Shown here piece after piece: positions 48,634 through 64,000 of a stretch of 64,000 nucleotides of DNA. The stretch comes from an uncultured Chloroflexia bacterium (GTDB lineage Bacteria; Chloroflexota; Limnocylindria; Limnocylindrales; CSP1-4). Below the pieces are notes generated by a model, which was not told where the DNA came from, did not search any database, and worked only from the letters and a program-made list of their open reading frames with translations. The stretch spans positions 1 to 64,000 of the forward strand of contig CAVVYR010000008.1 of NCBI GenBank assembly GCA_963752475.1, given 5' to 3'. The stretch's first letter is position 1, and each line of letters begins with the position of its first letter. A program made the position numbers and the translations under genes.

Positions 48634-48825
48634 GTGTCAAGGCTGGTCACCGACCCGGGCCGGGCGGGTGAGCGCTGCTCCAGCCAGGATCGTTGAGTCC
48701 GAGGTCGTGGCACGAGAGGAGGCTCTCACCCGATGTGGACGGTAGCGCCGCGTGTCTACCGCACAGCGGGTGGTAGGTGACCCACGTCGGCGTGGGTTGA
48801 CTTCAGGGTACCGCTATGGGATGCT

Positions 48826-48856
48826 GCACAACGGTACTTATCATGAACAATCGTGC
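48826..48856. promoter_or_regulatory. Tandem operator-like site 1 (GnAC-N4-GTnC twice)
   Basis: GCACAACGGTAC (48826-48837) and GAACAATCGTGC (48845-48856), just downstream of TTGACT-N17-GATGCT. Confidence 0.65.
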
Positions 48857-49787
48857 AGCACAAGCATCCCCTGTCCTGAGCCGCGTAGCGCGACTCTACT
48901 ACGAGCACGGGCTAACGCACGCGGACATCGCCAAGATCCTGGGCGTCTCGCGGGTGAAGGTCACGCGCATGCTCAACGAGGCGCGGCGGCTGGGCATCGT
49001 CGAGATCAAGGTCCACGGCGACACGTCCACGTTCTCCGAGCTCGAGTCCAGTCTGGTCACGCGCCTGGGCCTGCGCGATGCCTGGGTCGTGCCCGCCTCC
49101 TCGTCGGACGAGCGGCTGCGCGCCTCGCTCGGGACCGGGGGCGCCCATGCCTTGCGGGCCCTGCTGGCCCCGGGGATGGTCGTGGGCGTGAACCAGAGTC
49201 GGACCGTCTCTGCCATCCCCTTGGCGCTCGGCAGCGAGGAGCCGGTCGACGCACAGTTCGTGCCCGTGGCCGGCAGCGCCGGCGGCTACGGCCGGAGCAA
49301 GGCTCACGAGACCAGCGAAGCCCTCGCCCGTGCATTCGGTGGAAGCGCCTATCACCTGCCGGCGCCGACGCTGGCCTCGTCCGCCCGCGCGGCGGAGGTG
49401 CTCCTTGCGGAGAAGGAGATCGCTGACACGCTGTCGCTGGCCGCAAACGCCGACCTGCTGCTGGCGGGCATCGGAACGCTCGAGGATAACTACCTCATGC
49501 GCGGTGGTGAGATGCCTTCCGGGTCACACCGGTCACTCCGCTCCAGGGGGGCCGTCGGCGACATGTCGTTGCGCTTCTTCGACGTGGAAGGCAAGCCGGT
49601 CGATTCACCGATGGACGATCGCGTCATCTCGCTCACGCTCGAACAACACGTGCACATCCCGCTGCGGATGGCCATCGCCGGTGGCGATGCCAAGCGGGAG
49701 GCGCTGGTCGCAGCGGCGCACGGTGACCTGTACAACATCCTCGTCACCGACTTGGAGACAGCCACCTGGCTGATCGACAACACCTAG
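48843..49787 (+). CDS. SorC/DeoR/LsrR-family sugar-binding transcriptional regulator
   Basis: VARLYYEHGLTHADIAKILGVSRVKVTRML.EARRLGIVEI HTH; GAVGD...RFFD..G and LVTD. Confidence 0.92.
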   Translation: MNNRAAQASPVLSRVARLYYEHGLTHADIAKILGVSRVKVTRMLNEARRLGIVEIKVHGDTSTFSELESSLVTRLGLRDAWVVPASSSDERLRASLGTGGAHALRALLAPGMVVGVNQSRTVSAIPLALGSEEPVDAQFVPVAGSAGGYGRSKAHETSEALARAFGGSAYHLPAPTLASSARAAEVLLAEKEIADTLSLAANADLLLAGIGTLEDNYLMRGGEMPSGSHRSLRSRGAVGDMSLRFFDVEGKPVDSPMDDRVISLTLEQHVHIPLRMAIAGGDAKREALVAAAHGDLYNILVTDLETATWLIDNT

Positions 49788-49792
49788 CATCA

Positions 49793-50437
49793 ATGGGGGA
49801 AGGCCACCACATGGAAGAGTACCGGGAGCTCATCGAGCAGCTGGCTGAGGCCGGCCGCGACGCGGTCGCGCGCGGGCTGACGCTCGCCTCAGGCGGCAAC
49901 CTCTCAGCGCGGATGCCGGGCTCGGACCGCTTCATCGTCACCGGCACCGGCACCTACCTCGACCGCCTCGACGACGATGACTTCAGCATCATGGACCTCG
50001 ACGGCAACGTACTCGGCGGGAGCGTGCCGCCATCGAGCGAGTGGAAGTTGCACCAGCGTACGTACCGCGTGCGCGAGGACGTCAACTCGATCATCCACCT
50101 GCACCCACAGTACTCGGTGCTGCTCGACGCGATGGGCCACGAGATCCGGCTCATCACCCTCGACCACGCCTACTACCTGCGCAACATCGAGCGCTGCGAC
50201 TACTACCCCAACGGTACCGACGAGCTGGGCGACACCGCGGCCGAGGCTGCCCGCGAGTGCAACGCCATCATCCTCGCCTACCACGGCTGCTCGACCCTGG
50301 GCGATACCGTGGCCATGGCCTATCGGCGGGCGATGAACCTCGAAGAGGCGGCCATGACCACGTATCGCTGCCTGACCCTGGGTAACACCGACCTCACCTT
50401 CCCCAAGGAGGAGTGGGCGCGGATCCACCACGCCTGA
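49793..50437 (+). CDS. Class II aldolase/adducin family protein (FucA-like)
   Basis: GGNLSAR, PSSEWKLH, IHLHP and LAYHG Zn-ligand motifs. Confidence 0.88.
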   Translation: MGEGHHMEEYRELIEQLAEAGRDAVARGLTLASGGNLSARMPGSDRFIVTGTGTYLDRLDDDDFSIMDLDGNVLGGSVPPSSEWKLHQRTYRVREDVNSIIHLHPQYSVLLDAMGHEIRLITLDHAYYLRNIERCDYYPNGTDELGDTAAEAARECNAIILAYHGCSTLGDTVAMAYRRAMNLEEAAMTTYRCLTLGNTDLTFPKEEWARIHHA

Positions 50438-50447
50438 GGATCTGCCG

Positions 50448-52700
50448 GTGACCGACGAACGCATCGTCCGCGTCGGCTGCCCGGCTCACAATTGCGGCGG
50501 GCGTTGCCTGCTGGTGGCCCACGTCGCGGACGGCGTCATCACCCGCCTTGACGCCGACGATCGCCCCGATGACCTGGCCTCACCCCAGCTGCGCGCGTGT
50601 GTGCGCGGCCGAGCCTACCTGCGCCGGCAGTACCACCCCGACCGCCTGCTCCATCCCCTTCGTCGGGTCGGCACCCGCGGCGACGCACACTTCGAGCGGA
50701 TCGGCTGGGACGAGGCCCTGGACCTCGTGGCGTGTGAGATCCAGCGGGTGCGCGAGACCTACGGCAGCGAAGCGCTCTTCGTGCCCTACGGCACCGGCAG
50801 CTACAACCAGCTCAACGGTTCGCACCAGGCGCGGCGACTGATGAACCTCTCGGGCGGCTGTCTGGGCTTCTACAACGACTACTCCATGGCCGCGATCAAG
50901 GCGGCCACGCCCACGGTCTACGGCACCAACGTCACCGGCAACGAGCGACAGGACTGGCTCAACGCGCACTACATCCTGATGTGGGGCTGGAACCCCGCCG
51001 AGATGCGCGACGAGACCAACAGCGACTACTTCTTGCGCCTGGCGCGCGACCGCGGCGCCCGCGTCGTGTGCGTCGATCCACGCATGAGCTTGTCAGCCTC
51101 CCTGGCCGACGAGTGGGTACCGATCCGACCGGGCACCGACGCGGCCATGATGTCGGCCATGGCCTTCGTCATGATCGACGAGGAGCTCTACGACGCCGAG
51201 TTCGTGGGCACGCACTGCCTGGGTTTCGATGCCTCACAGATGCCAGCGGGGTTGGGAGGCGAGGAGAGCTACTCCGACTACATCCTGGGCACGCGCGACG
51301 ACACGCCCAAGAGCCCGCGCTGGGCCGAGGCCATCACCGGCGTGCCGGCCGTGACCATCGCCCGCATCGCCCGCGAGTACGCCACCACCAAACCGGGCGT
51401 GCTGTACCAGGGCTACGGCATGCAGCGCCGTGCCTACGGCGAGCAGGTCGTGCGGGCCGGCTGCGTGCTGGCAGCGATCACCGGCAACGTCGGCGTCAGC
51501 GGTGGCTGGGCCAGCGGCACCGCCAAGCCTGCTCCCCACGGTGGCTGCAAGGGCACGTACTTCCCGCGCGGTGACAACCCCGTGCAGGCGCAGATCCCCA
51601 CATTCCTCTGGACCGACGCCGTGACCCGAGGGATCGAGATGGGCCCGCAGGACGGACTGCGCGGTGCCGACCGACTAGCGACGAACATCAAGCTGCTCTA
51701 CTCGGTGGCCTCCAACGTCATGGGTGGCCAACACAGCGACCTCAATCGCACCGCCGAGATCCTGCGCGACGAGTCGCTGGTCGAGTTCATCGTGGTCCAG
51801 GACAACTTCCTGACCACGACCGCGTCCTTCGCCGACGTCGTGCTGCCTGCCTGCACCCAGTTCGAGACGTGGGGCTTCGAGGACGGCTGGAAGTTCACCG
51901 ACGACGTCATCCTCCAGCCCAAGCTGGTCGAACCCGCGGGCGAGTCTCGCAGTGACTTCGCCATCTGCGCCGGGATCGCGCAGCGCCTGGGCATCGGCGA
52001 GGCCTTCACCGAGGGACGCGATGAGCGCGAGTGGACCGAGTGGCTGCTCGATCGAGTGCGCGAGACCCGCTTCCCGGATCTGCCCGCGTTCGACGAGCTG
52101 CTCGAGCGGAACACGGGCACGTGGCCCCGGCCGATCCATGAGCCTGCCATCGCCTTCGCCGACTTCCGGGCCGACCCAGACGCCCATCCACTCGACACGC
52201 CGTCGGGCCGGATCGAGATCTTCTCCCGGCAGTTGCACGACCTCGGCCAGCCGCACGAAGTGCCGGCGCTGCCCAAGTACGTGCAGGAGTGGGAGAGCCC
52301 ACTGGGTCCCGAAGCCGAACGCTATCCACTCGCGGTCATCGGCCACCACTCGCTGCAGCGCGTCCACTCCACGCATGACAACAACGACTGGCTGGAGGAG
52401 GCCTTCCCCCAGCGAGCGGCCATCAACCGCATGGATGCCGAAGCACGCGGTATCGCCGACGGCGACAGCGTGCGCATCTGGAACGACCGTGGCGAGATCC
52501 GCCTCCCCTGCCGACTCACCGACCGGCTCATGCCCGGTGTCATCGACGTGCCCCAGGGCGCCTGGTGGAAGCCCGACGCCGATGGCATCGACGGTCGTGG
52601 CAACGTCAACGTCCTGTCCTCGCTGCGACCCACGCCGCTGGCCTTCGGCAATGCCCAGCACACGATCATGGCCGAGGTCGCCCCCATCGACCCCAGGCCA
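50448..52700 (+). CDS. dmsA: DmsA/YnfE-like Mo-bisPGD oxidoreductase catalytic subunit, no Tat signal; probably fused to the DmsB domain across a frameshift (end approximate)
   Basis: CPAHNCGGRC...CVRG Fe-S motif, DYS (Ser ligand), PIRPGTD, TPSGRIE, RVHSTH and QGAWW. Confidence 0.85.
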
Positions 52701-53397
52701 CAGGACCGCAGCCGGAAGCACTCGCGGCTCGTTCTCGCCGCGGCCGTTCGAGGCCCCGGCGGAGCCCGTCTCGGCCGAGCCGCTGCTGTTCCACTTCGAC
52801 GCCTCGGCCTGCACCGGCTGCAAGGCCTGCCAGGTCGCATGCAAGGATCGCAACGGCCTGCCCGAGGGCCTCCTCTGGCGGCGCGTCTACGAGGTCACCG
52901 GCGGTTCGTGGCAGCGGCAGGGAGCGGCGTGGGAGCACGACGTCGGGGCGTACCACCTGTCGCTCTCGTGCAACCACTGCGAGAAGCCGGTGTGTGCCGA
53001 GGTCTGCCCAGCGGCGGCCATCGGCCGGCGACCAGACGGAGTCGTGCTCATCGATCCCGAGCGCTGCACCGGCTGCCGCTACTGCGCCTGGGCCTGCCCC
53101 TATGGCGCACTCCAGTTCGATGCGCTCGCGGGCGCGATGACGAAGTGCACGTTCTGCGTCGAGGACCTGGACGACGGTCGCCAGTCCGCCTGTGTCGCGG
53201 CCTGCCCCATGCGCGCGCTGGACGTGGGCACACGCGAGGAGCTGCTGGCCCGGCACCCCCAGAGCACGCCGGAGGCACTGGGCCTCCATCCCCTACCCGA
53301 CCCGGCCCTGACCGAACCGGGGTTGCTCATCACACCCCACCGCGAGGCCGCCCGTGTAGCCGATGTGGCGGTCGTGGCCAACTACGAGGAGACGTGA
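52701..53397 (+). CDS. dmsB: DmsB-like 4x[4Fe-4S] electron-transfer subunit/domain (start approximate; no own start codon)
   Basis: CTGCKACQVACKD, SCNHCEKPVCAEVCP, CTGCRYCAWACPY and KCTFC...CVAACPMRAL. Confidence 0.88.
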
Positions 53398-54302
53398 TGG
53401 GCGAACGCTCGCTGGTGCTCTTCACGCTCCTGACCCAGGCCGCCTGTGGGGCGCTCGTCGCGCTCGCGGGCATGCAGGTGCTCGGCGATGCCGATGTGCT
53501 CGGCATCGTGCCCTTCGTGGTCGTGGGCCTGCTGCTGCTCGTGGCCGCTATCACCTCCACGCTCCACCTGGGCTCGCCGGCCCACGCGCCCTATGCCATC
53601 AGCAACCTCCGAGCCTCGTGGCTCAGCCGCGAGATCCTGGGCCTGGGCCTGACCGGCGGCTTCGTCGCCCTCGGAGGGCTCCTGGCGCTCATCTCCGGCG
53701 GTGCCGACAGTGAGACCGCGCGCACGATCGTGACCGTGCTGGCGGCCGCGGCTGGCACCTTCCTGGTGCTGGCCATGGTGCGGCTCTACTCGGTACGCAC
53801 CATCCCCGAGTGGCACCCGACCCGGGTCGCGCTCGAGTTCACGGGAAGCACGCTGCGACTGGGCGCCCCTCTGGGGGTGGCGCTGGCTACGGTCGGAGTC
53901 TTGCCCGATGGCTCGATCGGTGTCGCGGCGGTCTGGCCGCTGCTGCTGCTCGCGGCCGGAATGATCCTGTGGTTCGCCGGCCGGAACTCGCGGCTGATCG
54001 GTGACGAGGCCACCCGCCGAGCCGGCGCGCTGCTGGTGCGCGGAGCACCAGAGGCGACCGTGATCGATCACGGTCGCATTCCGCTCTGGCTCGCAGTCGG
54101 CGTGCTCGTGGCCATGACCGGCACAGGCCTCCTGGGCGTGGGGCCGGCTTCGCTGGCCGGCCTGCTGGCACTCGCTGGCCTGCTGGCATGCGTCCCGCAC
54201 GAAGTCGCCGCCCGTGGCCACTTCTACGAGGCCGCGCCCGATCGTGGTCGCGACGCCAGGCGGCCTGCAGGCGCATCGCCTCGCCCAGCGGAAGGGCGCT
54301 GA
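53397..54302 (+). CDS. dmsC: DmsC/YnfH-like membrane anchor subunit
   Basis: ERSLVLFTLL.Q, STLHLGSP, SWLSREI and M.RLY...TIP.W; its ATG overlaps the dmsB TGA. Confidence 0.85.
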   Translation: MGERSLVLFTLLTQAACGALVALAGMQVLGDADVLGIVPFVVVGLLLLVAAITSTLHLGSPAHAPYAISNLRASWLSREILGLGLTGGFVALGGLLALISGGADSETARTIVTVLAAAAGTFLVLAMVRLYSVRTIPEWHPTRVALEFTGSTLRLGAPLGVALATVGVLPDGSIGVAAVWPLLLLAAGMILWFAGRNSRLIGDEATRRAGALLVRGAPEATVIDHGRIPLWLAVGVLVAMTGTGLLGVGPASLAGLLALAGLLACVPHEVAARGHFYEAAPDRGRDARRPAGASPRPAEGR

Positions 54303-54303
54303 C

Positions 54304-55318
54304 CTACAGGCCCAGGCGTTCACGCGCAGCTGGGATGGCATCGGGGTTGACGACGTTGACGACGGCACCTCCGATGAAGGCTTCCAGCGCCTCCCAGGCG
54401 ATACGCGCCTGGTGGTCGCCGACCTCGTGGGTGGCGCCCCCGAGATGGGGAATGGCCACGACGTTCGGCAGCTCCAGCAAAGGGTCATCGACCGGCAGTG
54501 GCTCCTGCATGTAGACGTCCAGGGCGGCCCCGGCGATACGACGCTCGCGCAGCGTCTCGACCAGCGCGTCGGGATCGACGAGCCGGGCGCGGGCGCTGTT
54601 GACGAGGAAGGCCGTGGGCTTCATCAGGCCCAGTTCGCGGGCGCCGATCATGCCCGTGGTGGCCGGTGTGACGGGGACGTGCAGCGAGACGATGTCCGAG
54701 TCGCGCAGCACGTCGTCAAGCGCCAGGAGCGTGGCATCCACGCCCTCGGCGACCGCGACCTCCACGAAGGGGTCGTGGGCGACCAGGCGCGCGCCGAAGC
54801 CGGCCAGGCGTTGCGCGGTGGCCAGACCGGTGGCACCAAGGCCCACGAGTCCGATCGTCTTCTCGCGCAGCTCAAAGCCCTGGTTGGCGAGGTAGCTGGG
54901 CAGCAGCCCGCGCTCGACCCAGAGCCCGTCGCGCACCGAGGTCAGCGCCGGCCAGGCGTTGCGCATGACCATGACCATCATCATCACGGTCAAGTCGCCG
55001 ACAGCGTCGGCGTTGCGCCCCGGCGTGTTGATGACGACGACGCCGTGCTCGGTGGCCGCGTCCACATCGACGTTGGCTGGAGCAGCTCGCGTGGCGATGA
55101 TGACCCCCAGCTCGGGCGACCGCTCGATGACCGAGCGCGTGACCTCGTCAGCCTCCGTGATGAGCACCTGCTGACCCGCGATGCGAGCCACCAACTCATC
55201 CTCCGAGGCCAGCGGCTGGGATCTCGTCCCACTCGACGTGGGTGAACTCGTAGGCCTCGGTAAGCCGCTGGATCCATCGTTCAGGCAGGCGTCCCGAGGC
55301 CAGGACGCGCGGCGGCAT
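54304..55318 (-). CDS. D-2-hydroxyacid dehydrogenase (SerA-like), frameshift near 55220
   Basis: NTPGRNA, GLVGLGATG, NSARA, LDVY.QEP and PHLGGAT; the N-terminus MPPRVLAS starts at 55318, overlapping the upstream stop. Confidence 0.85.
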
Positions 55319-55973
55319 CAGTGCGGGTCCTGTCCGTAGTTCTTGTGGTACCAGCCGAAGGCCCGGTCGAGCTCTTCCTGCGGCAGCTCGGTGACCTCGT
55401 GACCCATGGACTTGGCGTAGTAGATCGTGCGCGCGGCCTCTTCCATGTAGGTCGCGACCTTGACCGAGTCACTCGCCGTGGCGCCGAAGGTGAAGGGTCC
55501 GTGGCGGTTGACGAGGACGGCAAGACCGTCACCGCCGACGCGCACGATGGCCTCGCCGGTCTCGTCGTGGGCCGGCTTGACGTACTCCGTGCAGGGGATG
55601 GCGCGACCGACGATGTGGCTGAACGGCGTCAGCGCCGCGGGCAGGGCCTCCCCCATGAGGGCGAAGGCCGTGGAGTACGGCGAGTGGGTGTGGGTGATGC
55701 CGCCGATGTCGTCGCGGTGCTTGTAGATGTAGTTGTGGATGCCCAGGTCCACGGAGGGCTTGAGGTCGCCCTCGACCACGTGCCCTCGAGGTCGGTCACG
55801 ACCATGTTCTCAGGCGTGAGATCGCGGAAGCGCAGCCCGCTGGGCTTGATGATGACGTGGCCTTCCTCGCGCACGATGGCGCTGACGTTGCCGCCGGTCC
55901 ACACCACGAGCCCCTGGTCCGGGAGCTCCTTGTTCATGGCGCAGACTTCCTTGCGTAGCTCTGGGTACAGCAT
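55318..55973 (-). CDS. Class II aldolase/epimerase (L-ribulose-5-phosphate 4-epimerase-like), frameshift near 55783
   Basis: LVVWTGGNVS, IKPSG, then PSVD..IH, THTHS and RHG in the second frame. Confidence 0.85.
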
Positions 55974-56003
55974 GGTCCCGGGTCTCCCCTTCCTGGATTT
56001 CTG

Positions 56004-57053
56004 TCAGTCCTTGGCTGGATCCGCCGCGGTCAGCGACGGGATGATCACGCTCTTGATGGACTCACCGGCCTTGACGATGAGGTCGATGCCCTCCATCGCG
56101 CCATCGAACCCGAAGCGGTGCGTGATGAGCGCCTTGGCATCGACGCGACCGTTGGCGATGTACTGAAGCACGGCGTTGGTCTCGGCCTTGGTCGAGGAGT
56201 AGCCGTTGTTGATGGTGATGCCGGAGAAGTAGAGGTGGTTGGGGTCCACCGTCGCTCGCTCGTCGGGGTGCGGCGGAGCGTTCACGTGGAGCGTGCCGCC
56301 CTTGCCCACCAGAGCCAGTGCGGCCTCCCAGGCCCTAGCTGACGGCGCGGTCGAGACGACTGCGTCGGCGAGGCGCCCGTCGTTGACGGCCTTGAGCGCT
56401 TCGGCGGCCTCCACGCGCTCGGGGTTGATGGCGTGCGTGGCGCCCATCTCCAGGGCACGTTCCAGACGCCAGTCGCTGAAGTCGAGGGCTACGATGCTGG
56501 CGTATGGGAAGAGCCGGGCCAGCTGCACGAAGGAGAGGCCCATGAAGCCCACGCCCTGGACGGCGATGGTGTCGCCGCTGATCGACGTCGATCCTCTGCA
56601 GACCATAGAGGCAGTCCGACATCGGCTCGATGATGCAAGCCTCCTCGAAGGAGACGTGATCGGGCAGCTTCAGCATGACCGGCACGTTCTCAGTCGGCAC
56701 TCGGAAGTAATCGGCGAACCCGCCGGGATGGATGTTCGTCTTGGAGTAGGAGCCACAGTACGTGGCCGCACCGCGCTGGCAGTCTCGGCAGTCGCCGCAC
56801 TGCACGTGGTGGTGCACGAAGACGCGATCACCGACCGCCAGCCGCTGACGTCGTCGCCAACCTCCACGATCGTGCCCGCTGGTTCGTGGCCCAGGATCTT
56901 GGGCGCGCGGGGCTTGAGATACCACTCCATGGCCTCACCGCCGCAGAGCCCGCAGGCTTCGGTCTTGACGAGCACCTCACCAGGACCGATGGAGGGGACC
57001 GGCCGCTCCTCGACTCGGATGTCCGTGTTGCTGTAGTAGACGGCGCAACGCAT
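56004..57053 (-). CDS. Zn-dependent medium-chain (polyol-type) dehydrogenase, frameshifts near 56845 and 56585
   Basis: CGLCG, LGHE, CGDCRDC...C, IIEP, GVGFMG and LITHRF spread over three frames. Confidence 0.85.
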
Positions 57054-57106
57054 GGTCGGCCCTGCGCGTGTCAGCCCTCCATCGATCGGGGCCACGCCGA
57101 CCCGCA

Positions 57107-58114
57107 TCAGAGGGCCTCGGCCTTGGCCGCGCTGTGGACGGCCTCGATGCGGACGACGGCGAGGTCGTCCTCCTCGATACCCAGCTGCGAGTCGGTCAGT
57201 CGCTCGACGCCGCGCACCAGCGAGAGCGCGTCGAGGTCGTTCTCCTTCATGAGCGTGTGGCGGGTGGCGCCGTGCGAGTAGCGATCCTGGATGCCGATGC
57301 GCAACAGCCGCTTGCCGGTGCCGCTCTCGGCCATCAGTTCCGCCACGGCGGAGCCAAGGCCGCCCACGATGGTGTGGTTCTCCATCGTGATGACGCCCCG
57401 CTTGGCCTCCGCGATGGCCTCGGTCACCTGGGGATCGTCGAAGGGCTTGAGCGTGGAAACGTGGAGGTGGTTGATGGACACGCCCCGGTCACGCAGGACG
57501 CTGGTGGCGCGCATGGCCTCCTCGGTGCAGATGCCCGAGGAGAGGATGGTCAGGTCGGTGCCGTGCGAGAGTTGGCGAGCCTGGTTCAACTTGAAGGGTT
57601 CCGACTTGTCGAACAGGCGCGGCACCTCGCCCCGGAGCATGCGTACGTAGACCGGGCCGTTGACGGCCTGGATCTCGTCAAGACAGGTCTCGACGTCGGT
57701 GGCGTCGCCCATGTCGACCACGGTCATGTTGGGCGTGGCGCGCATGATGGCCACGTCCTCGATGGCCTGGTGTGAGGCACCGCCCGGCGAGATGATGCCG
57801 GGAAGGAAGCCGATGAGCCGCACGGGCAGGTTGGGATAGGCGATCGACATGGCCAATTGGTCGTAGGGCCGCCGATAGAGGAAGACCGCGAAGGTGTGCA
57901 GGTAGGGGAAGAACCCGCGCCGGGCCATGCCTGCGGCCCAGGCCATCATGTTCTGCTCGGCCAGGCCGAACGAGAAGAAGCGATCGGGGTAGGTCTGGCT
58001 CCAGACGCCGACCTCGCAGGAGTTGGTCAGGTCGGCCGAGAAGACGACGACCTTGGGCTTGTCCTCGGACCAGGCGAGGAAATTGCTGGCGTGCGGGCCG
58101 GTTACGACTTCCAC
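57107..58114 (-). CDS. Transketolase C-terminal subunit (split transketolase)
   Basis: SADL, GLAEQNM, TFAVF..RR.YDQ, GGASHQAIED, GPVYVR and ENH...GGLGSAVAE motifs. Confidence 0.92.
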   Translation of the reverse strand: MEVVTGPHASNFLAWSEDKPKVVVFSADLTNSCEVGVWSQTYPDRFFSFGLAEQNMMAWAAGMARRGFFPYLHTFAVFLYRRPYDQLAMSIAYPNLPVRLIGFLPGIISPGGASHQAIEDVAIMRATPNMTVVDMGDATDVETCLDEIQAVNGPVYVRMLRGEVPRLFDKSEPFKLNQARQLSHGTDLTILSSGICTEEAMRATSVLRDRGVSINHLHVSTLKPFDDPQVTEAIAEAKRGVITMENHTIVGGLGSAVAELMAESGTGKRLLRIGIQDRYSHGATRHTLMKENDLDALSLVRGVERLTDSQLGIEEDDLAVVRIEAVHSAAKAEAL

Positions 58115-59040: not shown

Positions 59041-59117
59041 CTCGGGATCTTGTGCCTCCTCATCGGGCTCCATCTGGACGGTCGTCTTCGGGGCGTGGCG
59101 AACCACGCGTCACTAGC

Positions 59118-59148
59118 GTACATCAGTTCGTCAAGTGCACGATTGTTC
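59118..59148. promoter_or_regulatory. Tandem operator-like site 2 (GnAC-N4-GTnC twice)
   Basis: GTACATCAGTTC (59118-59129) and GCACGATTGTTC (59137-59148); 59136-59149 is the exact reverse complement of 48844-48857. Confidence 0.7.
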
Positions 59149-59221
59149 ACCCAACATCCAGCGTTGACGTGTGCCTTCGGAGCCGTGCATCGTGAAGGGC
59201 AACGGTAGCCAGAGGAGACCC

Positions 59222-61534
59222 GTGGAGCGAGAGCCGTCCGAGCACCCCCATTCGTCGCACTGGGGTGCCTTCCTGGCTCGCGTGGAGGATGGACGGGTCC
59301 GGGTCCGTCCCCATCCGGCCGATCCCGATCCCTCACCCCTGCTGGCCAATCTCGAGTCCGCCGCCGACAGCGAATCACGCGTGGCCAGGCCGGCCTTCCG
59401 GCGAGGATGGCTGGAGGACGGGCCGGGCGCCGACCGCCGCCGTGGCGCTGACGAGTTCGTGGAGCTGCCCTGGGACGAGGCGCTCGAGGTCACCGCCGCC
59501 GAACTCGAGCGGGTGTACGGAGAGCATGGCCCCGAAGCGGTCTATGGCGGTTCCTACGGCTGGAGCAGCGCCGGCCGGATGCACCATGCGCAAAGCCAGG
59601 TGCACCGCTTCCTCAACGTGCTCGGCGGCTACGTCCGCTCGGTCAATACCTACAGCGCGGGCGCCGCCGAGGTCATCCTCCCGCGCGTGCTCGCCTCGTA
59701 CCAGGACCTCGTCACCGATGGCGTGACCTGGGAGAGCGTGATCGATCACGGTCGCCTCGTCGTGGCCTTCGGCGGCATGCCCGAGCGAACGCGCTACGTG
59801 CACTCGGGCGGACCGTCGCGGCACCGCGGGGACTCGGCCCTGCGCGCGGCGCGTGAGCATGGCGTGGAGTTCGTGCTGCTGAGCCCACTGCACGACGATC
59901 TGCCAGGCCACCTCGAGCCCGACTGGATCGCGCCGCGTCCGGCCACCGACGTGGCGCTCATGCTCGGCCTGGCCCACACCCTCGCCAACGAGGGCATGCA
60001 CGACCGTGACTTCCTCGAGCGTTGGTGCGTGGGCTATCCCGTGTTCGAGCGCTACCTGTTCGGACTCGACGACGGGCAGCCCAAGAACGCCGCCTGGGCC
60101 GCGGGGATCTGCGACGTGTCGGCGGACGAGATCACCGGCCTCGCTCGGCGGATGGCAGCTGGGCCTACGCTCATCACCGTGGCCCACGGCCTGCAGCGAG
60201 CCGAGCATGGCGAGCAGCCAGTGTGGATGGCCATCGCGCTCGCGGCCATGCTCGGCGGTATCGGATCACCGGGAGCGGGCTTCGCCTACGCCCTCGGGAT
60301 CTTCGCCAACACCGGCCAGGCACAGGCAGCCGTGAAGATTCCGTCCTTCCCGCAAGGTCGGAACCCGATCGACCGGTTCATCCCGGTCGCCCGCATCGCG
60401 GACATGCTGCTCCGCCCGGGCGACGCCTTCGAGTACGACGGGCGCTCACTGACGTACCCCGACATCAAGCTCGTCTACTGGGCCGGCGGCAACCCCTTCC
60501 ACCACCACCAGGACCTCGGTCGGCTGCGACGTGCCTTCCGCCGGCCGGACACGGTGATCGTGCACGAGCCCTACTGGACGGCAACGGCCCGGCATGCGGA
60601 CATCGTGCTGCCGAGCACCGTCACACTCGAGCGAGAAGACATCGGCTCCTCGCGCAACGATCCCGGCGTCATGGCCATGCACCGGGTGCTCGAACCGTTC
60701 GGACAGGCCCGTGACGACTTCGCCATCTTCGGCGACCTCGCGCAGCGGCTCGGGTTCGGCCCGGCGTTCACCGAGGGTCGAGACGCGGAGGGCTGGCTGC
60801 GTCACATCTACGCCGGCCTGGCCGACGAGCTCGAGCGCGCCGGGGCGGAGGCCCCGTCCTTCGAGACCTTCTGGGAGCAGGGTCAGCTGGAGCTACCCAT
60901 GCGTGCGGAGACGGGCGCCTGGCTGCGCCGCTTCGGCGAGGACCCCGAGGCCCATCCCCTGGCCACGCCCAGTGGACGCATCGAGATCCACTCGGAGACC
61001 ATCGCGGGGTTCGGCTACGACGACTGCCCCGGCCATCCGATGTGGCTGCCGCCCGACGAGTGGCTCGGCGGCGAGCGTGCCGCGAGCCATCCCCTGCAAC
61101 TCATCGCCAACCAGCCCGCGGGCCGGCTCCACAGCCAGCTCGACTTCGGTCCCGCCAGCGCTAGGCACAAGCAGGACGGTCGCGAGATGGTTCGGCTGCA
61201 CCCGCATGACGCTCACGCGCGTCGGGTCGGCTCGGGCGACACGGTACGTCTAAGGAACGATCGCGGGGCCTGCCTGGCGGTCGCCGAACTGGACGAGGCG
61301 ATCTCGCGCGGCTGCATACGGCTACCGACTGGCGCCTGGTTCGATCCACTCGATGACTCCGATCGGCCGACCTGTCTCGCGGGCAATCCCAACGCCGTCA
61401 CGCGCGACTTGGGCACGTCCCGCTTGGCCCAGGGGTGCTCCGGGCAACTGAGCCTGGTCGAGGTCGAGCGCGTCGAGCAAGCACCTCCTCCTCGGGGCCA
61501 CGCCCCTCCCCCCCTGGAGCGCTACCGGGAATGA
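59222..61534 (+). CDS. BisC/TorA/DorA-family Mo-bisPGD S/N-oxide reductase, cytoplasmic (no Tat signal, no Fe-S)
   Basis: HSSHWG, GGSYGWSSAG, NTYS (Ser ligand), QRAEHGEQ, WAGGNPFHHHQD and RLHSQLD motifs. Confidence 0.9.
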   Translation: MEREPSEHPHSSHWGAFLARVEDGRVRVRPHPADPDPSPLLANLESAADSESRVARPAFRRGWLEDGPGADRRRGADEFVELPWDEALEVTAAELERVYGEHGPEAVYGGSYGWSSAGRMHHAQSQVHRFLNVLGGYVRSVNTYSAGAAEVILPRVLASYQDLVTDGVTWESVIDHGRLVVAFGGMPERTRYVHSGGPSRHRGDSALRAAREHGVEFVLLSPLHDDLPGHLEPDWIAPRPATDVALMLGLAHTLANEGMHDRDFLERWCVGYPVFERYLFGLDDGQPKNAAWAAGICDVSADEITGLARRMAAGPTLITVAHGLQRAEHGEQPVWMAIALAAMLGGIGSPGAGFAYALGIFANTGQAQAAVKIPSFPQGRNPIDRFIPVARIADMLLRPGDAFEYDGRSLTYPDIKLVYWAGGNPFHHHQDLGRLRRAFRRPDTVIVHEPYWTATARHADIVLPSTVTLEREDIGSSRNDPGVMAMHRVLEPFGQARDDFAIFGDLAQRLGFGPAFTEGRDAEGWLRHIYAGLADELERAGAEAPSFETFWEQGQLELPMRAETGAWLRRFGEDPEAHPLATPSGRIEIHSETIAGFGYDDCPGHPMWLPPDEWLGGERAASHPLQLIANQPAGRLHSQLDFGPASARHKQDGREMVRLHPHDAHARRVGSGDTVRLRNDRGACLAVAELDEAISRGCIRLPTGAWFDPLDDSDRPTCLAGNPNAVTRDLGTSRLAQGCSGQLSLVEVERVEQAPPPRGHAPPPLERYRE

Positions 61535-61580
61535 GGCAACGGCTTGCACAGGGACGCTCGAGGAGACTGGCTCAAGGGGC

Positions 61581-61652
61581 TTGACACGACCCCTGTGGTG
61601 GGGGCACACTGCGCCGGAGTTGGACATCGGTACGTTTGCTGAACATATGTAC
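61581..61652 (+). promoter_or_regulatory. Promoter-like TTGACA-N18-CACACT followed by tandem operator-like site 3
   Basis: TTGACA 61581-61586; GGACATCGGTAC (61622-61633) and GAACATATGTAC (61641-61652). Confidence 0.65.
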
Positions 61653-61815
61653 CCGAGAACCCGACGACACTGGCCAAGCGCTGCGGACCGCCGCTTGGAC
61701 TACGGGAGGAATCGAATCGCCGAGGGAAGCGGCGAAGAGGAGGAGCGACTGGGACGAGCGCTGAACCACCGAACGGATCGACTCGATCACCGCATCGCCT
61801 AGAGGAGAACCCACC

Positions 61816-62823
61816 ATGAACTTCCGACGCGGAATCACCGCCGTCGCGTCGCTGGCCATCGTCGCCAGCCTGGCCGCCACGCCGGCCCTCGCGCAGGACG
61901 ACACAGAGCAGGTCGGCGAGGTCGACACCGAAGGCCTGAGCCTCGACGGCACGACCATCGGCGTCGCCGTCATCGGGACCGACCACTACTGGGATCGCGC
62001 CGCCTTCAACGGCCTGACCGGCAAGCTCGAGGAGCTCGGTGCAGAGGTCGTATCCGTGGACGCCGGCCGTGACGATCAGAAGCACGTCGCCGGTCTCGAG
62101 AACCTGCTCGCGCAGGAGCCCGACGCCATCGTCAACATCCTCGGCACTGCCACCGTCATCGAGCCGGTGTTCGAGAAGATCGCCGAAGCGGGCATCCCGC
62201 TCCTCGCGGTGGACACGGCCTCCGAGTTCGCCATCAACAACACCACCTCCGACAACACCGCCCTCGGCACCGAGCTGGCCGATCAGCTGGTCGCCGACAT
62301 CGGCGAGGCCGGCAACGTGGCCGTCTTCAACGGCTTCTACGGCATCAACGTCTGCGCCCTGCGCTACGACGCGCTGGCCGCCGTACTCGACCAGTACCCC
62401 GATGTGGAGATCCTCCAGCCGGAGCTCCAGGACGTCATCCCCAACACCCAGGAGGACGCCCGCAAGAAGATCCAGGACCTGCTGCAGAAGTATCCCGAGG
62501 GTGAGATGAGCGCCGTCTGGGCCTGCTGGGACATCCCCGGCCTGGGCGCCAACCTCGCCATCGTCGACGCCGGCCGCCAGGGCGACGTCGGCTTCTACGG
62601 CGTCGACGGCGACCCCACGGTCCTCGAGGTCATGGCCCAGGAAGGCCAGGCCATCAGGGCCATCGCCAGCCAGCAGCCGGGCCTGATCGGTGAGATCAGT
62701 GCCATGAACGTGGCCAAGTACCTAGGTGGCGAGGAGCTCGCCAAGACGACCCTCGTGCCCGCCTTCCTGACCCTGCCTGACAACGTGGAAGAGGTCCGCG
62801 TGCAGCTCGGCCAGGTCGAGTAG
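61816..62823 (+). CDS. Sugar ABC transporter substrate-binding protein
   Basis: Signal peptide ending ALAQDD; periplasmic binding protein type I pattern (GIPLLAVD, SDN, YGVDG, QQP); AGAGGAG RBS. Confidence 0.88.
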   Translation: MNFRRGITAVASLAIVASLAATPALAQDDTEQVGEVDTEGLSLDGTTIGVAVIGTDHYWDRAAFNGLTGKLEELGAEVVSVDAGRDDQKHVAGLENLLAQEPDAIVNILGTATVIEPVFEKIAEAGIPLLAVDTASEFAINNTTSDNTALGTELADQLVADIGEAGNVAVFNGFYGINVCALRYDALAAVLDQYPDVEILQPELQDVIPNTQEDARKKIQDLLQKYPEGEMSAVWACWDIPGLGANLAIVDAGRQGDVGFYGVDGDPTVLEVMAQEGQAIRAIASQQPGLIGEISAMNVAKYLGGEELAKTTLVPAFLTLPDNVEEVRVQLGQVE

Positions 62824-62838
62824 CGACAAGTCCCAGGA

Positions 62839-62880
62839 GCCGTGCCGGTGGTCCTCCTCCTGCGTTCCGGCCGGCACGGC
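62839..62880 (+). terminator. Stem-loop after the binding-protein gene
   Basis: GCCGTGCCGG (62839-62848) pairs with CCGGCACGGC (62871-62880). Confidence 0.45.
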
Positions 62881-62902
62881 CCCACTATCACGAAGGTCTG
62901 AG

Positions 62903-64000
62903 ATGTCGACCGCTCCCGACGCACTCACGCTGCGCGGTATCAGCAAGTCGTTCCCGGGCGTACGCGCCCTCGATGATGTCGACTTCTCGGTCGCTGCAGG
63001 CGAGGTCCACGGTCTCGTCGGTGAGAACGGCGCGGGCAAGTCGACGCTCATCAAGATCATCGCCGGTGTGTACCAGCGCGATGCCGGCGAGATGCTGGTC
63101 CGCGGCAAGGCCTGCGGGAACCTCACTCCTCACCAGGTCGAGGAGCTGGGCATCCAGTTCATCCACCAGGAGCAGAACCTGGTTTCCGAGTTCACCGTGG
63201 CCCAGGCCGTGTTCATGGGCCAGGAGAAGAAGCTGGGCAAGTGGGTCCCGCTGGTCGACAACCGGCGCATGGAGCAGGAAGCCAGCGCCCTGATCAGCGA
63301 GATGCTAGGTGTCGACCTGCCGGGCAATCGCCTCGTGCGCGACCTCTCGGTGGCCGAGCGCCAGCTGGTTCAGATCGCGAAGGCCCTCCTGACCAAGCCC
63401 AGCGTGGTCGCCTTCGACGAGCCCACCGCTCCCCTCGCCCGTCGCGAGGTCGAGGCGCTCTTCCGCATGATCGACAAGCTGAGAGAGCAGGGCCTGGCCA
63501 TCATCTATATCTCGCACTACCTCCAGGAGATCACGCAGATATGTGATCGCGTGACGGTCTTGCGCAACGGCAAGCTGGCCGGGACGCTGCCGCTACCCGA
63601 GACCTCCATCGAGGACATCGTGACAACCATGGTCGGTCGCGAGATCGACGAGATGTACCCGCCGCGCAAGGTCGAGGTCGGCGCTCCCCGCCTCCATGTC
63701 GAGAACCTCACGCTCCACGGCGCCTTCGAGGACATCTCCATCGACGTCGGCCGAGGTGAGGTCATCGGCGTGACCGGCCTGCTTGGCTCGGGCATCCATC
63801 CCCTGGCCGAGACGCTCTACGGCCTGCGTCGGCCGGATTCGGGAACCATTCGGCTCGACGGGACCGAGCTGGGAGCGCTCACTGCCTCCAAGGCGGCCGA
63901 GCTTGGCTTTGGCATGGTGCCCAAGGATCGTCGCTGGGAAGGCGTGGTCGTATCCATGTCGGTAGCGGACAACGTCAACCTCTCGAGCCTTGAGAAGTCG
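62903..64000 (+). CDS. Sugar ABC transporter ATP-binding protein (RbsA-like, two domains); runs off the window end
   Basis: Read directly from ATG 62903: ISKSFPGVRALDDV, GENGAGKSTL, IHQE, LSVAERQLVQIAKAL, FDEPT, YISH and GLLGSG; absent from the ORF track, presumably because it has no stop in the window. Confidence 0.92.
   Translation, partial: MSTAPDALTLRGISKSFPGVRALDDVDFSVAAGEVHGLVGENGAGKSTLIKIIAGVYQRDAGEMLVRGKACGNLTPHQVEELGIQFIHQEQNLVSEFTVAQAVFMGQEKKLGKWVPLVDNRRMEQEASALISEMLGVDLPGNRLVRDLSVAERQLVQIAKALLTKPSVVAFDEPTAPLARREVEALFRMIDKLREQGLAIIYISHYLQEITQICDRVTVLRNGKLAGTLPLPETSIEDIVTTMVGREIDEMYPPRKVEVGAPRLHVENLTLHGAFEDISIDVGRGEVIGVTGLLGSGIHPLAETLYGLRRPDSGTIRLDGTELGALTASKAAELGFGMVPKDRRWEGVVVSMSVADNVNLSSLEKS

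What the first reader, a model, noticed from the sequence alone, without database searches (positions are those of the whole stretch)
48797..64000. Candidate undescribed pathway: a SorC-type sugar regulon that includes two cytoplasmic molybdoenzyme S/N-oxide reductases
Seen: the regulator, class II aldolase and dmsA/B/C follow each other with gaps of 10 bp or less. An opposite-strand operon encodes a split transketolase, Zn-dehydrogenase, second class II aldolase/epimerase and 2-hydroxyacid dehydrogenase. A BisC/TorA-like gene diverges from it and a sugar ABC transporter follows. All three promoter regions carry the same tandem motif. Known: SorC/DeoR regulators sense sugars or sugar-phosphates; split transketolases serve rare-sugar routes (apiose, sulfoquinovose); DmsA and BisC families reduce sulfoxides and N-oxides. 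Inference: uptake and catabolism of an S- or N-oxidised sugar or nucleoside (a methylthio-sugar sulfoxide is one guess), or rare-sugar oxidation coupled to S/N-oxide reduction. No sugar kinase is visible in this part; it may lie beyond 64000.
Basis: partly seen in the sequence, partly recalled or inferred. Interest (0 to 1): 0.82.

Follow-up and report, generated by a model that had tools for sequence, protein, structure and literature searches.

The report
Sugar regulon carrying two molybdenum reductases
A sugar-alcohol utilisation gene cluster in an uncultured Chloroflexota bacterium, switched by a single repressor, has two ordinary sulfoxide/N-oxide reductases attached to it in this lineage only, so the proposed new pathway is possible but unproven.

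Summary
The gene content, the tight spacing and the shared promoter motif are real. A tandem operator (TGnACAAcgGTaC-N6-tGAACAnatGTaC) sits at exactly three loci in the 64-kb window: before sorC, between the transketolase operon and the bisC-like gene, and before the sugar-binding protein. It is conserved at the same places in three related Chloroflexota MAGs. This is a SorC-type regulon for a polyol or rare sugar; its binding protein aligns at E 9e-87 with an allitol-bound protein. dmsABC lies directly behind sorC-aldolase and is probably co-transcribed.

Both Mo enzymes lack Tat leaders and keep the Ser Mo ligand. They are ordinary relatives of DmsA/YnfE and BisC. DmsA and DmsB are fused in this clade.

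The sugar link has a single origin. 77 of 80 related dmsABC loci carry no sugar-cluster genes. One of the three relatives lacks sorC-aldolase and any operator upstream of dmsAB. Four proteobacterial plasmid clusters with the nearest transketolase or binding-protein homologues hold no Mo enzyme. Nothing points to an S/N-oxidised sugar.

Best reading: lineage-specific coupling of polyol catabolism to an S/N-oxide electron sink, or mere adjacency. Five frameshifts break genes here and are probably assembly indels.

The parts
48825..48857 (+). Operator O1: tandem quasi-palindromic SorC-type site overlapping the putative -10 region and the sorC start codon
   Evidence: conserved in L001 and L003
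48843..49787 (+). sorC: SorC/DeoR-family sugar-binding transcription regulator (alternative start 48816)
   Evidence: PF04198 at 194 bits plus an HTH. Best NCBIfam matches are DeoR and LsrR, both below cut-off. 70% identical to the L003 orthologue from 48849 on.
49793..50437 (+). ald1: FucA-like class II aldolase
   Evidence: PF00596 at 147 bits. Nearest solved relative is DrdA, 6BTD, at E 1.9e-24.
50448..52700 (+). DmsA part of a fused dmsAB gene; no Tat leader; Ser146 is the putative Mo ligand
   Evidence: TIGR02166 at 831.3 bits against a cut-off of 777.7, matched from profile position 41. Ser aligns with the DorA Mo ligand.
52683..52703 (+). Frameshift (one extra base) inside the variable DmsA-DmsB linker
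   Evidence: tblastn with the intact fused orthologues of L002 (990 aa) and L003 (1001 aa) changes frame here; DNA alignment A4
52702..53397 (+). Linker and DmsB (four-cluster ferredoxin) part of dmsAB, read in another frame
   Evidence: TIGR02951 at 208.8 bits and Fer4_11; no start codon of its own
53397..54302 (+). dmsC membrane anchor; its start overlaps the dmsB stop
   Evidence: PF04976 at 64.5 bits
54304..55318 (-). D-isomer 2-hydroxyacid dehydrogenase, with a frameshift at about 55222; convergent with dmsC, 1 bp apart
55318..55973 (-). AraD-like class II epimerase/aldolase, with a frameshift at about 55790 (one base missing)
   Evidence: Two pieces match NF005123 profile positions 10-79 and 70-222. 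Intact relatives are 218 aa.
56004..57053 (-). Zn-dependent alcohol/polyol dehydrogenase, with two frameshifts (about 56583 and 56840-56915)
   Evidence: Three pieces in three ORFs match ADH_N and ADH_zinc_N; frames -3, -2, -3 against the L003 orthologue
57107..58114 (-). Transketolase C-terminal subunit
   Evidence: PF02779 and PF02780; 88-95% identical in L001-L003
58102..59042 (-). Transketolase N-terminal (TPP-binding) subunit
   Evidence: PF00456; start set by the conserved ATG and the L003 match
59117..59149 (.). Operator O2 in the divergent transketolase/bisC intergenic region, about 75 nt from either start codon
   Evidence: invariant block in 4 of 4 genomes
59222..61534 (+). bisC-like MGD S/N-oxide reductase; no Fe-S domain and no Tat leader; Ser145, Tyr112 and Trp114 conserved
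   Evidence: TIGR00509 at 897.8 bits; 1EU1 alignment at 644 bits; homologues
61621..61653 (+). Operator O3, downstream of a conserved TTGACA-type -35 box and upstream of the binding-protein gene
61816..62823 (+). CUT2-family sugar/polyol-binding lipoprotein
   Evidence: PF13407; 3L49 at E 6e-90 and allitol-bound 4WT7 at E 9e-87
62903..64000 (+). Sugar ABC transporter ATPase, cut by the window end

Best explanation
This is a catabolic regulon for a polyol or rare sugar, controlled by a SorC-family repressor.

Shown:
- One tandem operator sits at three promoters. These serve the autoregulated sorC-ald1-dmsAB-dmsC unit, the divergent transketolase-operon/bisC region, and the binding-protein/ABC-transporter operon.
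- The operator is kept at these places in related genomes.

Inferred:
- The repressor binds the operators until a sugar-phosphate intermediate releases it.
- The transporter imports a sugar alcohol, and the Zn-dehydrogenase oxidises it.
- A kinase phosphorylates the product. It is expected beyond position 64000, after the permeases, as in the Sulfitobacter cluster.
- The AraD-like epimerase, the split transketolase and the class II aldolase feed the product into central metabolism.
- The two Tat-less Mo enzymes are ordinary S/N-oxide reductases: a fused, membrane-anchored DmsAB-C that faces the cytoplasm, and a soluble BisC-like enzyme.
- In this one Chloroflexota lineage they became attached to the regulon. 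They are co-expressed so that reducing equivalents from an over-reduced substrate can be passed to DMSO-, TMAO- or sulfoxide-type acceptors.
- They do not act on the sugar itself.
For: - Operator: 3 sites in 64 kb, with 0 of 100 shuffles reaching 3. Ten sites at orthologous places in 4 genomes, plus an eleventh in L001 with one extra spacer base. No match in the other 77 loci.
- Operon structure: gaps of 5 and 10 bp in the window and of about 82 and 43 bp in L003. In L001 the unit is tightly packed, with two extra E1 genes.
- Polyol: the SBP aligns with allitol-bound 4WT7 at E 9e-87. A Zn-ADH is present.
- Mo enzymes: DmsA scores above the TIGR02166 cut-off. Ser ligands align with DorA Ser147, and the BisC-like enzyme also keeps the equivalents of Tyr114 and Trp116.
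- No Tat leader.
- The block dmsABC / transketolase operon / bisC / SBP is kept in 4 of 4 genomes of the clade, although the left flank differs in each.
- From general knowledge (recalled, not tested here): polyols are more reduced than sugars, and their anaerobic use often needs an external acceptor. An example is E. coli growing on glycerol with DMSO, TMAO or fumarate.
Against: - The association goes back to one event. The window and L001-L003 form a single clade in the DmsA tree (SH-like support 100).
- 77 of 80 related loci have dmsABC without any homologue of the regulator, transketolase, epimerase, ADH or SBP. Of these, 41 have at least 2 kb upstream and at least 8 kb downstream.
- In L002, sorC-ald1 and the operator are missing upstream of dmsAB.
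- Four plasmid clusters with transketolase (52-58% identical) or SBP (about 51% identical) homologues hold no Mo enzyme.
- No transcript data exist, and a consensus promoter/terminator scan found nothing useful.
- Five frameshifts lie within 4.2 kb of the cluster, against two found in the remaining 59.8 kb. This could mean decay in this genome.
- The electron-sink role is inference only.
Confidence: 0.42

Rival explanations
1. Historical adjacency without metabolic coupling. The regulon covers only the sugar genes. dmsAB-C and bisC sit next to it by chance in a carbohydrate-gene-rich region of one lineage. At most they are read through from the sorC promoter, with no selected function.
For: - The association has a single origin.
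- 77 of 80 dmsABC loci lack sugar-cluster genes.
- L002 lacks sorC-ald1 and the operator in front of dmsAB.
- Both Mo enzymes belong to large, highly conserved families found in many contexts: 5519 DmsA and 8000 BisC homologues scored.
- The window holds several other sugar clusters.
- Operator O2 lies upstream of the putative bisC -35 box and need not control bisC.
Against: - Gaps of 5-10 bp leave no room for a separate dmsA promoter in the window.
- The block is kept in 4 of 4 clade genomes while the left flank is rearranged.
- In L002, dmsAB again lies behind co-oriented sugar genes: ADH, FGGY kinase, 2-HADH and GH42.
- A more distant fused DmsAB (P0044, 69% identical) and an AraD-like protein (P0247, 69% identical) come from the same source collection and share the same longest-contig length, 23476. 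This hints at a fifth, older co-occurrence, but it could not be verified.
Confidence: 0.35
2. The cluster catabolises an S- or N-oxidised sugar or nucleoside, for example a methylthio-sugar sulfoxide. The Mo enzymes reduce the oxidised group of the substrate or of an intermediate in the cytoplasm.
For: - Both reductases face or lie in the cytoplasm (no Tat leader), where a phosphorylated intermediate would be.
- The nearest solved relative of the first aldolase is DrdA, the 5-deoxyribulose-1-phosphate aldolase, but only at E 1.9e-24.
- The nearest plasmid homologues of the transketolase lie beside genes annotated mtnK and mtnA in Rhizobium.
- The DmsA clade has a rather long stem branch of 0.25.
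Against: - The cluster and its three relatives hold no MtnK/MtnA-type kinase or isomerase, nucleosidase or phosphorylase.
- The SBP resembles an allitol binder. It is not orthologous to the SBP of the Rhizobium mtnK cluster, to which it is only 27% identical.
- The Mo enzymes are 60-73% identical to homologues in unrelated contexts and keep the standard active-site residues.
- The class II aldolase match to DrdA is no better than its matches to ordinary FucA enzymes.
Confidence: 0.05
3. The cluster is decaying in this genome. The frameshifts in dmsAB, 2-HADH, the epimerase and the ADH are real mutations, so the pathway is no longer functional here.
For: - Five frameshifts lie in 52.7-56.9 kb, against two found in the other 59.8 kb of the window: DHDPS at about 650 and PHO4 at about 24600.
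- My binomial estimate for such clustering is about 2e-5. Detection was, however, more thorough inside the cluster.
- No identical intact copy of the epimerase was found (best hit 88% identical).
Against: - The broken genes are as similar to their orthologues (83-100% identity to L001) as the intact ones, and they keep GC3 of 0.8-0.9.
- Frameshifts also hit unrelated genes elsewhere in the window.
- Relatives L001 and L002 show frameshifts at other positions: Ald1, DmsB and a garbled BisC in L001, and BisC in L002. L003, whose contig title reads like a SPAdes short-read node, shows none.
- The indels are single bases, both insertions and deletions, partly in short homopolymers.
Confidence: 0.15

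Closest known systems
E. coli DmsABC / YnfEFGH (DmsA/YnfE subfamily, TIGR02166; DmsB TIGR02951; DmsC PF04976)
   Same: - Three-part architecture: a Mo-bisMGD catalytic part, a four-cluster ferredoxin and a membrane anchor.
- DmsA scores above the subfamily cut-off.
- An N-terminal Cys motif for FS0 and the Ser Mo ligand are present.
   Different: - There is no twin-arginine leader, so the catalytic part should face the cytoplasm.
- DmsA and DmsB are one polypeptide of about 990-1000 aa in this clade.
- The genes lie behind a sugar regulator and an aldolase, not in a stand-alone respiratory operon as recalled for E. coli.
BisC (biotin/methionine sulfoxide reductase) and DorA/TorA type III DMSO-reductase-family enzymes (TIGR00509; PDB 1EU1)
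   Same: - Single-subunit enzyme without an Fe-S domain.
- 644 bits to R. sphaeroides DorA.
- The equivalents of Ser147, Tyr114 and Trp116 are conserved.
- No signal peptide, as in cytoplasmic BisC.
- About 60% identical to proteins that sources name S/N-oxide or biotin sulfoxide reductase.
   Different: - The score (897.8) is below the TIGR00509 cut-off of 1017.55.
- The gene is divergently transcribed from a transketolase operon, with a SorC-type operator in between.
SorC/DeoR/CggR/LsrR/EryD-type sugar-phosphate-sensing repressors with repeated operators (the examples are recalled, not tested here)
   Same: - An HTH plus a PF04198 sugar-binding domain.
- Autoregulatory position.
- A tandem operator repeated at several promoters of one catabolic cluster.
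   Different: - No equivalog-level match: DeoR 154.7 bits against a cut-off of 420, and LsrR 147.9 against 486.
- The effector is unknown.
- The unit it heads carries respiratory-type Mo enzyme genes.
Split-transketolase rare-sugar clusters, such as the Rhizobium rosettiformans plasmid p1 and Vibrio nigripulchritudo plasmid clusters; also the apiose and sulfoquinovose transketolase routes (recalled)
   Same: - Two-gene transketolase, 52-58% (C subunit) and 48-51% (N subunit) identical.
- Neighbours include a SorC- or DeoR-type regulator, a class II aldolase fusion and a sugar ABC transporter.
   Different: - Those clusters carry genes annotated mtnK and mtnA, a RuBisCO-like protein or FGGY kinases, and no Mo enzyme.
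- Their SBP is not orthologous: 27% identical.
Agrobacterium vitis Avi_5165 (PDB 4WT7, allitol-bound) and Rhodobacter 3L49 CUT2 binding proteins
   Same: Alignable over nearly the whole mature protein, at 294 and 305 bits. The allitol ligand of 4WT7 was confirmed from passages of PMC10318746.
   Different: - The ligand of the window's protein is untested.
- SBP-homologue clusters on a Sulfitobacter and a Rhizobium plasmid hold no Mo enzyme. The Sulfitobacter one has a class II aldolase, SDRs and a sugar kinase after the permeases.

Membership tests
SorC/DeoR-type sugar-binding regulators | N-terminal HTH plus C-terminal PF04198 sugar-binding domain | tested here: met
   PF04198 at 194.1 bits (cut-off 27), with HTH models over residues 23-63
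SorC/DeoR-type sugar-binding regulators | Equivalog-level match to a characterised member (DeoR, LsrR) | tested here: not met
   DeoR 154.7 bits against 420; LsrR 147.9 against 486
SorC/DeoR-type sugar-binding regulators | Binds repeated operators in the promoters it controls, released by a sugar phosphate | not testable with these tools
   Only the conserved tandem motif at three promoters is shown
DmsABC (DmsA/YnfE subfamily) | Catalytic subunit scores above the TIGR02166 cut-off | tested here: met
   831.3 bits against 777.7
DmsABC (DmsA/YnfE subfamily) | Twin-arginine leader for export of DmsAB | tested here: not met
   The profile match starts at position 41. At most 24 in-frame codons lie upstream, and they overlap ald1. 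Judged by eye, 2 of 78 assessable relatives (L044, L045) have an RR leader.
DmsABC (DmsA/YnfE subfamily) | Ser ligand to Mo and an N-terminal Cys group (FS0) | tested here: met
   Ser146 aligns with the Mo-ligand Ser of DorA. A Cys motif at residues 11-20 and PF04879 at 23.4 bits against 22.7.
DmsABC (DmsA/YnfE subfamily) | Separate DmsB ferredoxin subunit | tested here: not met
   DmsB is fused to DmsA: ORFs of 990 aa (L002) and 1001 aa (L003), and hits of 960-1009 aa. In the window the fusion is interrupted by a frameshift. The DmsB part scores 208.8 bits against a cut-off of 214.1.
DmsABC (DmsA/YnfE subfamily) | DmsC-type membrane anchor | tested here: met
   PF04976 at 64.5 bits against 22.3
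DmsABC (DmsA/YnfE subfamily) | Quinol-dependent reduction of DMSO or other S/N-oxides | not testable with these tools
   No assay possible
BisC/DorA/TorA type III S/N-oxide reductases | Score above the TIGR00509 subfamily cut-off | tested here: not met
   897.8 bits against 1017.55; it is nevertheless the best-scoring family
BisC/DorA/TorA type III S/N-oxide reductases | No Fe-S domain; Ser Mo ligand; Tyr/Trp of the S-oxide pocket | tested here: met
   PF18364, PF00384 and PF01568 only. Ser145, Tyr112 and Trp114 align with DorA Ser147, Tyr114 and Trp116 (the roles of these residues are recalled).
Split transketolase | TPP-binding N-terminal domain and pyrimidine-binding plus C-terminal domains on two adjacent genes | tested here: met
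   PF00456 on 58102-59042; PF02779 and PF02780 on 57107-58114
L-ribulose-5-phosphate 4-epimerase subfamily (NF005123) | Score above the subfamily cut-off (251) | tested here: inconclusive
   The gene is split by a frameshift. The pieces score 76.6 and 152.7 bits, covering profile positions 10-79 and 70-222.
Methylthioribose / 5-deoxyribose (DHAP-shunt type) salvage clusters | MtnK/DrdK kinase and MtnA/DrdI isomerase next to the class II aldolase | tested here: not met
   No such gene lies in 48.8-64 kb or in L001-L003

The most novel reading that the evidence does not exclude
The fused, Tat-less DmsAB-C and the BisC-like enzyme are dedicated parts of a polyol or rare-sugar pathway. A sugar-phosphate-sensing SorC repressor then directly switches on cytoplasm-facing S/N-oxide reduction. 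The reduction would serve either as the obligatory quinol sink for an over-reduced substrate or act on an S/N-oxide-bearing sugar-derived intermediate. The DmsA-DmsB fusion clade would mark this specialised role.
Probability: 0.2. Interest if true: 0.7.

Novelty: new variant of a known kind. Interest (0 to 1): 0.42.

Why it matters
If the coupling is functional, it would be a case in which a carbohydrate-sensing repressor, not an oxygen, nitrate or molybdate regulator, governs DMSO-family reductases. It would also give a physiological role to a very large, uncharacterised group of Tat-less, cytoplasm-facing DmsABC complexes. These are common in Chloroflexota and present in Acidobacteriota, Gemmatimonadota and other phyla.

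The operator-defined regulon is directly testable, using EMSA, a reporter and binding-protein ligand screens.

If the adjacency is accidental, the finding reduces to an ordinary SorC-regulated polyol cluster next to two ordinary reductases.

Tried and rejected
- **L001 bisC replacement.** I considered that the bisC-like gene of L001 (52% identical) was a non-orthologous replacement at the same position, which would have argued for selection. This was rejected. Its N-terminus is nearly identical to the window's, its best hits are the same clade, and the sequence is garbled by indels.
- **Search for an intact epimerase.** I looked for an identical intact copy of the frameshifted epimerase to decide between error and mutation. 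None was found (best hit 88% identical), so the test is inconclusive.
- **Shared contig of P0044 and P0247.** I tried to confirm that the fused DmsAB P0044 and the AraD-like P0247 share a contig. 
- **Promoter/terminator scan.** The consensus scan found no promoter-like site and one uninformative terminator-like site.
- **Neighbour clustering.** Clustering the neighbours of the 80 dmsA loci gave no conserved partner apart from dmsB and dmsC. An ABC-F ATPase occurs in 18 loci, and PadR, kinase and other genes in 8 or fewer.
- **Rhizobium and Vibrio transketolase clusters.** They proved to be different pathways: only the transketolase is related, and the SBP is 27% identical.
- **Paper searches without a relevant hit:**
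  - RuBisCO-like protein + transketolase + mtnK: 0 papers.
  - Transketolase/apiose/apulose: nothing on this cluster.
  - dmsA/Chloroflexi/twin-arginine/cytoplasmic: nothing on Tat-less DmsA.
  - SorC + dmsA: 8 papers, none relevant by title or abstract.
  - DMSO reductase/polyol/electron sink/transketolase: 4 papers, none relevant.
- **Technical failures.** The first maximum-likelihood tree run did not finish, so FastTree was used.
- **Not checked.** DNA beyond position 64000 was not available. The relatives' loci end inside the SBP gene.

Full report
**What is there.** The window has about 68% G+C, and its closest relatives are Chloroflexota MAGs.

On the plus strand:
- a SorC/DeoR-type regulator (PF04198, 194 bits)
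- a FucA-like class II aldolase
- DmsA (TIGR02166, 831.3 bits against a cut-off of 777.7), DmsB and DmsC

On the minus strand:
- a D-2-hydroxyacid dehydrogenase
- an AraD-like class II epimerase
- a Zn-dependent dehydrogenase
- the C- and N-terminal transketolase subunits

On the plus strand again:
- a BisC-like enzyme (TIGR00509, 897.8 bits, below the cut-off of 1017.55 but the best family)
- a CUT2 binding protein
- an ABC ATPase cut by the window end

The gaps are 5 bp (sorC to aldolase) and 10 bp (aldolase to dmsA). The dmsB stop overlaps the dmsC start. The dmsC and 2-HADH stop codons are 1 bp apart, convergent. No kinase lies in 48.8-64 kb.

**Corrections to the observation.** The dmsA frame has no stop codon until 54302, and dmsB has no start codon. 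The closest homologues are single proteins of 960-1009 aa that carry both the molybdopterin and the ferredoxin domains. L002 and L003 hold uninterrupted ORFs of 990 and 1001 aa. DmsA and DmsB are therefore fused in this clade through a variable linker of about 35 residues, and the window carries one extra base in that linker.

Four more frameshifts break the 2-HADH (about 55222), the epimerase (about 55790, one base missing) and the ADH (about 56583 and 56840-56915). Frameshifts also split a DHDPS-family gene (about 650) and a PHO4 transporter gene (about 24600) elsewhere in the window. L001 and L002 show frameshifts at other positions. L003, whose contig title reads like a SPAdes short-read node, shows none. 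The broken genes are as conserved as the intact ones.

I therefore read the frameshifts as assembly indels. Their concentration, five in 4.2 kb, is unexplained, and real decay is not excluded. A search for an identical intact epimerase found none (best hit 88% identical).

**The operator.** An exact 14-mer is shared by the sorC and the transketolase/bisC regions. The degenerate tandem pattern GNAC-N4-GTNC-N7-GNAC-N4-GTNC, with up to 1 mismatch, hits exactly three places in 64 kb. The expected number is 0.26, and 0 of 100 shuffles reach three. A stricter pattern with up to 3 mismatches adds only one weak site, at 17371.

Alignments of the three intergenic regions with L001-L003 show that sequence conservation is concentrated on the motif and on TTGAC-type boxes, in otherwise diverged DNA. 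Ten sites in four genomes give the consensus TGnACAAcgGTaC-N6-tGAACAnatGTaC. L001's binding-protein site has one extra spacer base. None of the other 77 loci has a match.

- O1 overlaps the putative -10 region and the sorC start codon.
- O3 lies downstream of a conserved TTGACA box.
- O2 lies about 75 nt from both the transketolase and the bisC start codons.

These promoter readings are inference from the sequence alone; the consensus scan found nothing.

**What the sugar part looks like.** The binding protein aligns over nearly its full mature length with PDB 3L49 (E 6e-90) and 4WT7 (E 9e-87). 4WT7 is the Agrobacterium vitis protein Avi_5165 with bound allitol (passages of PMC10318746). Together with the Zn-dehydrogenase, this points to a sugar alcohol or a related rare sugar.

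A Sulfitobacter plasmid cluster with a 51.6% identical binding protein carries a class II aldolase, SDRs, two permeases and then a sugar kinase.

The nearest plasmid homologues of the transketolase (52-58% identical) sit in Rhizobium and Vibrio clusters. Those clusters hold SorC- or DeoR-type regulators, genes annotated mtnK and mtnA, RuBisCO-like proteins or FGGY kinases. Only the transketolase is related; the binding protein there is 27% identical. The substrate therefore cannot be named from sequence.

**What the Mo enzymes look like.** Neither has a twin-arginine leader.
- The DmsA profile match starts at position 41, and at most 24 in-frame codons lie upstream.
- The BisC-like protein starts at 59222 with the family's N-terminal domain.

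Judged by eye, only 2 of 78 assessable DmsA relatives (L044 Bacteroidales and L045 Aminicenantales) carry an RR leader; L042 and L046 could not be assessed. Ser146 of DmsA and Ser145 of the BisC-like protein align with the Mo-ligand Ser147 of DorA. The BisC-like protein also keeps the equivalents of Tyr114 and Trp116 (the roles of these residues are recalled).

Both proteins belong to huge, well-conserved families.
- DmsA: 5519 homologues among 8000 candidates scored, at 62-73% identity across Chloroflexota, Acidobacteriota, Gemmatimonadota, Myxococcota, Planctomycetota and Bacteroidota.
- BisC-like: 8000 homologues among 8000 candidates scored, about 60% identical to proteins that sources name S/N-oxide or biotin/methionine sulfoxide reductase.

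They are thus ordinary S/N-oxide reductases by sequence. DmsAB-C is presumably anchored to the membrane and faces the cytoplasm.

**Is the link between sugar genes and Mo enzymes more than local history?** A scan of 185,579 species genomes with DmsA kept the 80 best loci. Only L001, L002 and L003 (82-88% identical DmsA) share the transketolase operon, the bisC-like gene and the binding protein. The other 77 have dmsABC but no homologue (E < 1e-8) of the regulator, transketolase, epimerase, ADH or binding protein. Of those 77, 61 have at least 2 kb upstream, 47 have at least 8 kb downstream, and 41 have both. Their neighbours are not conserved.

In a FastTree, the window and L001-L003 form one clade (support 100, stem 0.25). 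With the fused homologues added, 12 of the 13 fused DmsA-DmsB database forms, together with the window, L001, L002 and L003, form one clade of 18 rows (support 99). The thirteenth (P0045) is a different kind of fusion, and L033 is fused independently.

Within the small clade:
- L003 has sorC-ald1-dmsAB with gaps of about 82 and 43 bp.
- L001 has two extra TPP-dependent E1 genes between ald1 and dmsA.
- L002 has no sorC, no ald1 and no operator within 10 kb upstream of dmsAB. Instead it has co-oriented ADH, FGGY kinase, 2-HADH and GH42 genes.

The left flank of the cluster is different in the window, L002 and L003. The block is thus retained through rearrangements, but all the evidence goes back to one ancestral event.

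There is one hint of an older association. The fused DmsAB P0044 (69% identical) and the AraD-like P0247 (69% identical) come from the same source collection and have the same longest-contig length, 23476. This could not be verified.

**Reading.** The regulon is well supported. That dmsAB-C is transcribed from the sorC promoter is likely in the window, L001 and L003, but it is not universal. I favour lineage-specific recruitment of two standard reductases as an electron outlet for an over-reduced substrate (confidence about 0.4), closely followed by neutral adjacency (about 0.35).

The S/N-oxidised-sugar idea has no positive support beyond the cytoplasmic location (about 0.05). Two searches found no paper describing a SorC-controlled DMSO-family reductase, and one found nothing on Tat-less DmsA in Chloroflexi. 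For those three searches I saw only listings and abstracts, plus the outline and abstract of PMC13524816 and passages of PMC3903129.

**Limits.** No transcript, protein or ligand data exist. The relatives' loci stop inside the binding-protein gene. Metagenome contigs were closed, so the neighbourhoods of the wider fused DmsAB clade and of the transketolase homologues in Chloroflexota remain unchecked.

Noticed in passing
window 50448-53397; L002 9971-12943; L003 4858-7863: DmsA and DmsB are fused into one protein of about 990-1000 aa through a variable linker. In a FastTree, 12 of 13 fused database forms plus the window's clade form a single clade of 18 rows (support 99). L033 is fused independently, and 69 of 72 assessable loci have separate genes. 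I did not search the literature for this fusion.
   Followed up: partly
80 loci L001-L080, N-termini of dmsA: The whole DmsA subfamily found here is almost entirely Tat-less. Only L044 and L045 show RR leaders (judged by eye), although a DmsC anchor is usually present. This implies a widespread cytoplasm-facing DmsABC type of unknown physiological role.
   Followed up: partly
window 52683-56915, and also about 650 and about 24600: Frameshifts are strongly clustered: five in 4.2 kb (dmsA/B, 2-HADH, epimerase, ADH twice) against two detected in the other 59.8 kb (DHDPS-family gene, PHO4 transporter). The cause of the clustering (local assembly quality or real decay) is not settled.
   Followed up: partly
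window 25953-32166: An NAD-linked formate dehydrogenase-type operon: a NuoE-like 2Fe-2S protein, a NuoF-like protein, and a 952-aa Mo subunit with NuoG-like Fe-S domains. It is followed by FdhD and a MobA-like guanylyltransferase. The latter is the cofactor-maturation step that all three Mo enzymes of the window would need.
   Followed up: no
window 3-7019: A second carbohydrate cluster: a DHDPS-family lyase (frameshifted), an FGGY kinase, a class II FBP/tagatose-type aldolase, a HAD phosphatase, a 2-HADH, an Ldh_2-family dehydrogenase and an NAD epimerase. None of them is orthologous to the sugar genes upstream of dmsAB in L002.
   Followed up: partly
window 17645-21294: Another CUT2 sugar ABC transporter (ATPase, permease, binding protein, minus strand), next to an RpiB/LacAB-type isomerase. 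A weak operator-like site with 3 mismatches lies at 17371-17402 and is probably chance.
   Followed up: no
L001 1910-3923: In relative L001, two TPP-dependent E1 dehydrogenase genes (alpha and beta) are inserted between the class II aldolase and dmsA, inside the sorC-headed unit.
   Followed up: partly
upstream of dmsA in many Anaerolineae loci (e.g. L011, L015, L023-L027, L031, L077): The in-frame translation upstream of the dmsA start repeatedly reads like 'PPSLP...(L/S)YTG.M'. This reflects a conserved DNA element just before the start codon, perhaps a promoter of a leaderless or short-leader transcript.
   Followed up: no
window 48780-48797: A perfect 7-bp inverted repeat (ACCCACG/CGTGGGT, 4-nt loop) lies just upstream of the putative sorC -35 box. 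It may be the terminator of the upstream gene (48208-48630, no family match).
   Followed up: no
window 8843-11599 (minus strand): A 919-aa AMP-binding / carrier-protein / acyltransferase fusion protein lies next to a DAG-kinase-like gene. It is unrelated to the finding.
   Followed up: no
window 59222-61534: The protein collection holds a 780-aa protein (P0121) that is 99.7-100% identical to the window's BisC-like enzyme, from a separate 3-kb contig. The same or a nearly identical organism has therefore been sequenced elsewhere. Its origin was not traced.
   Followed up: no
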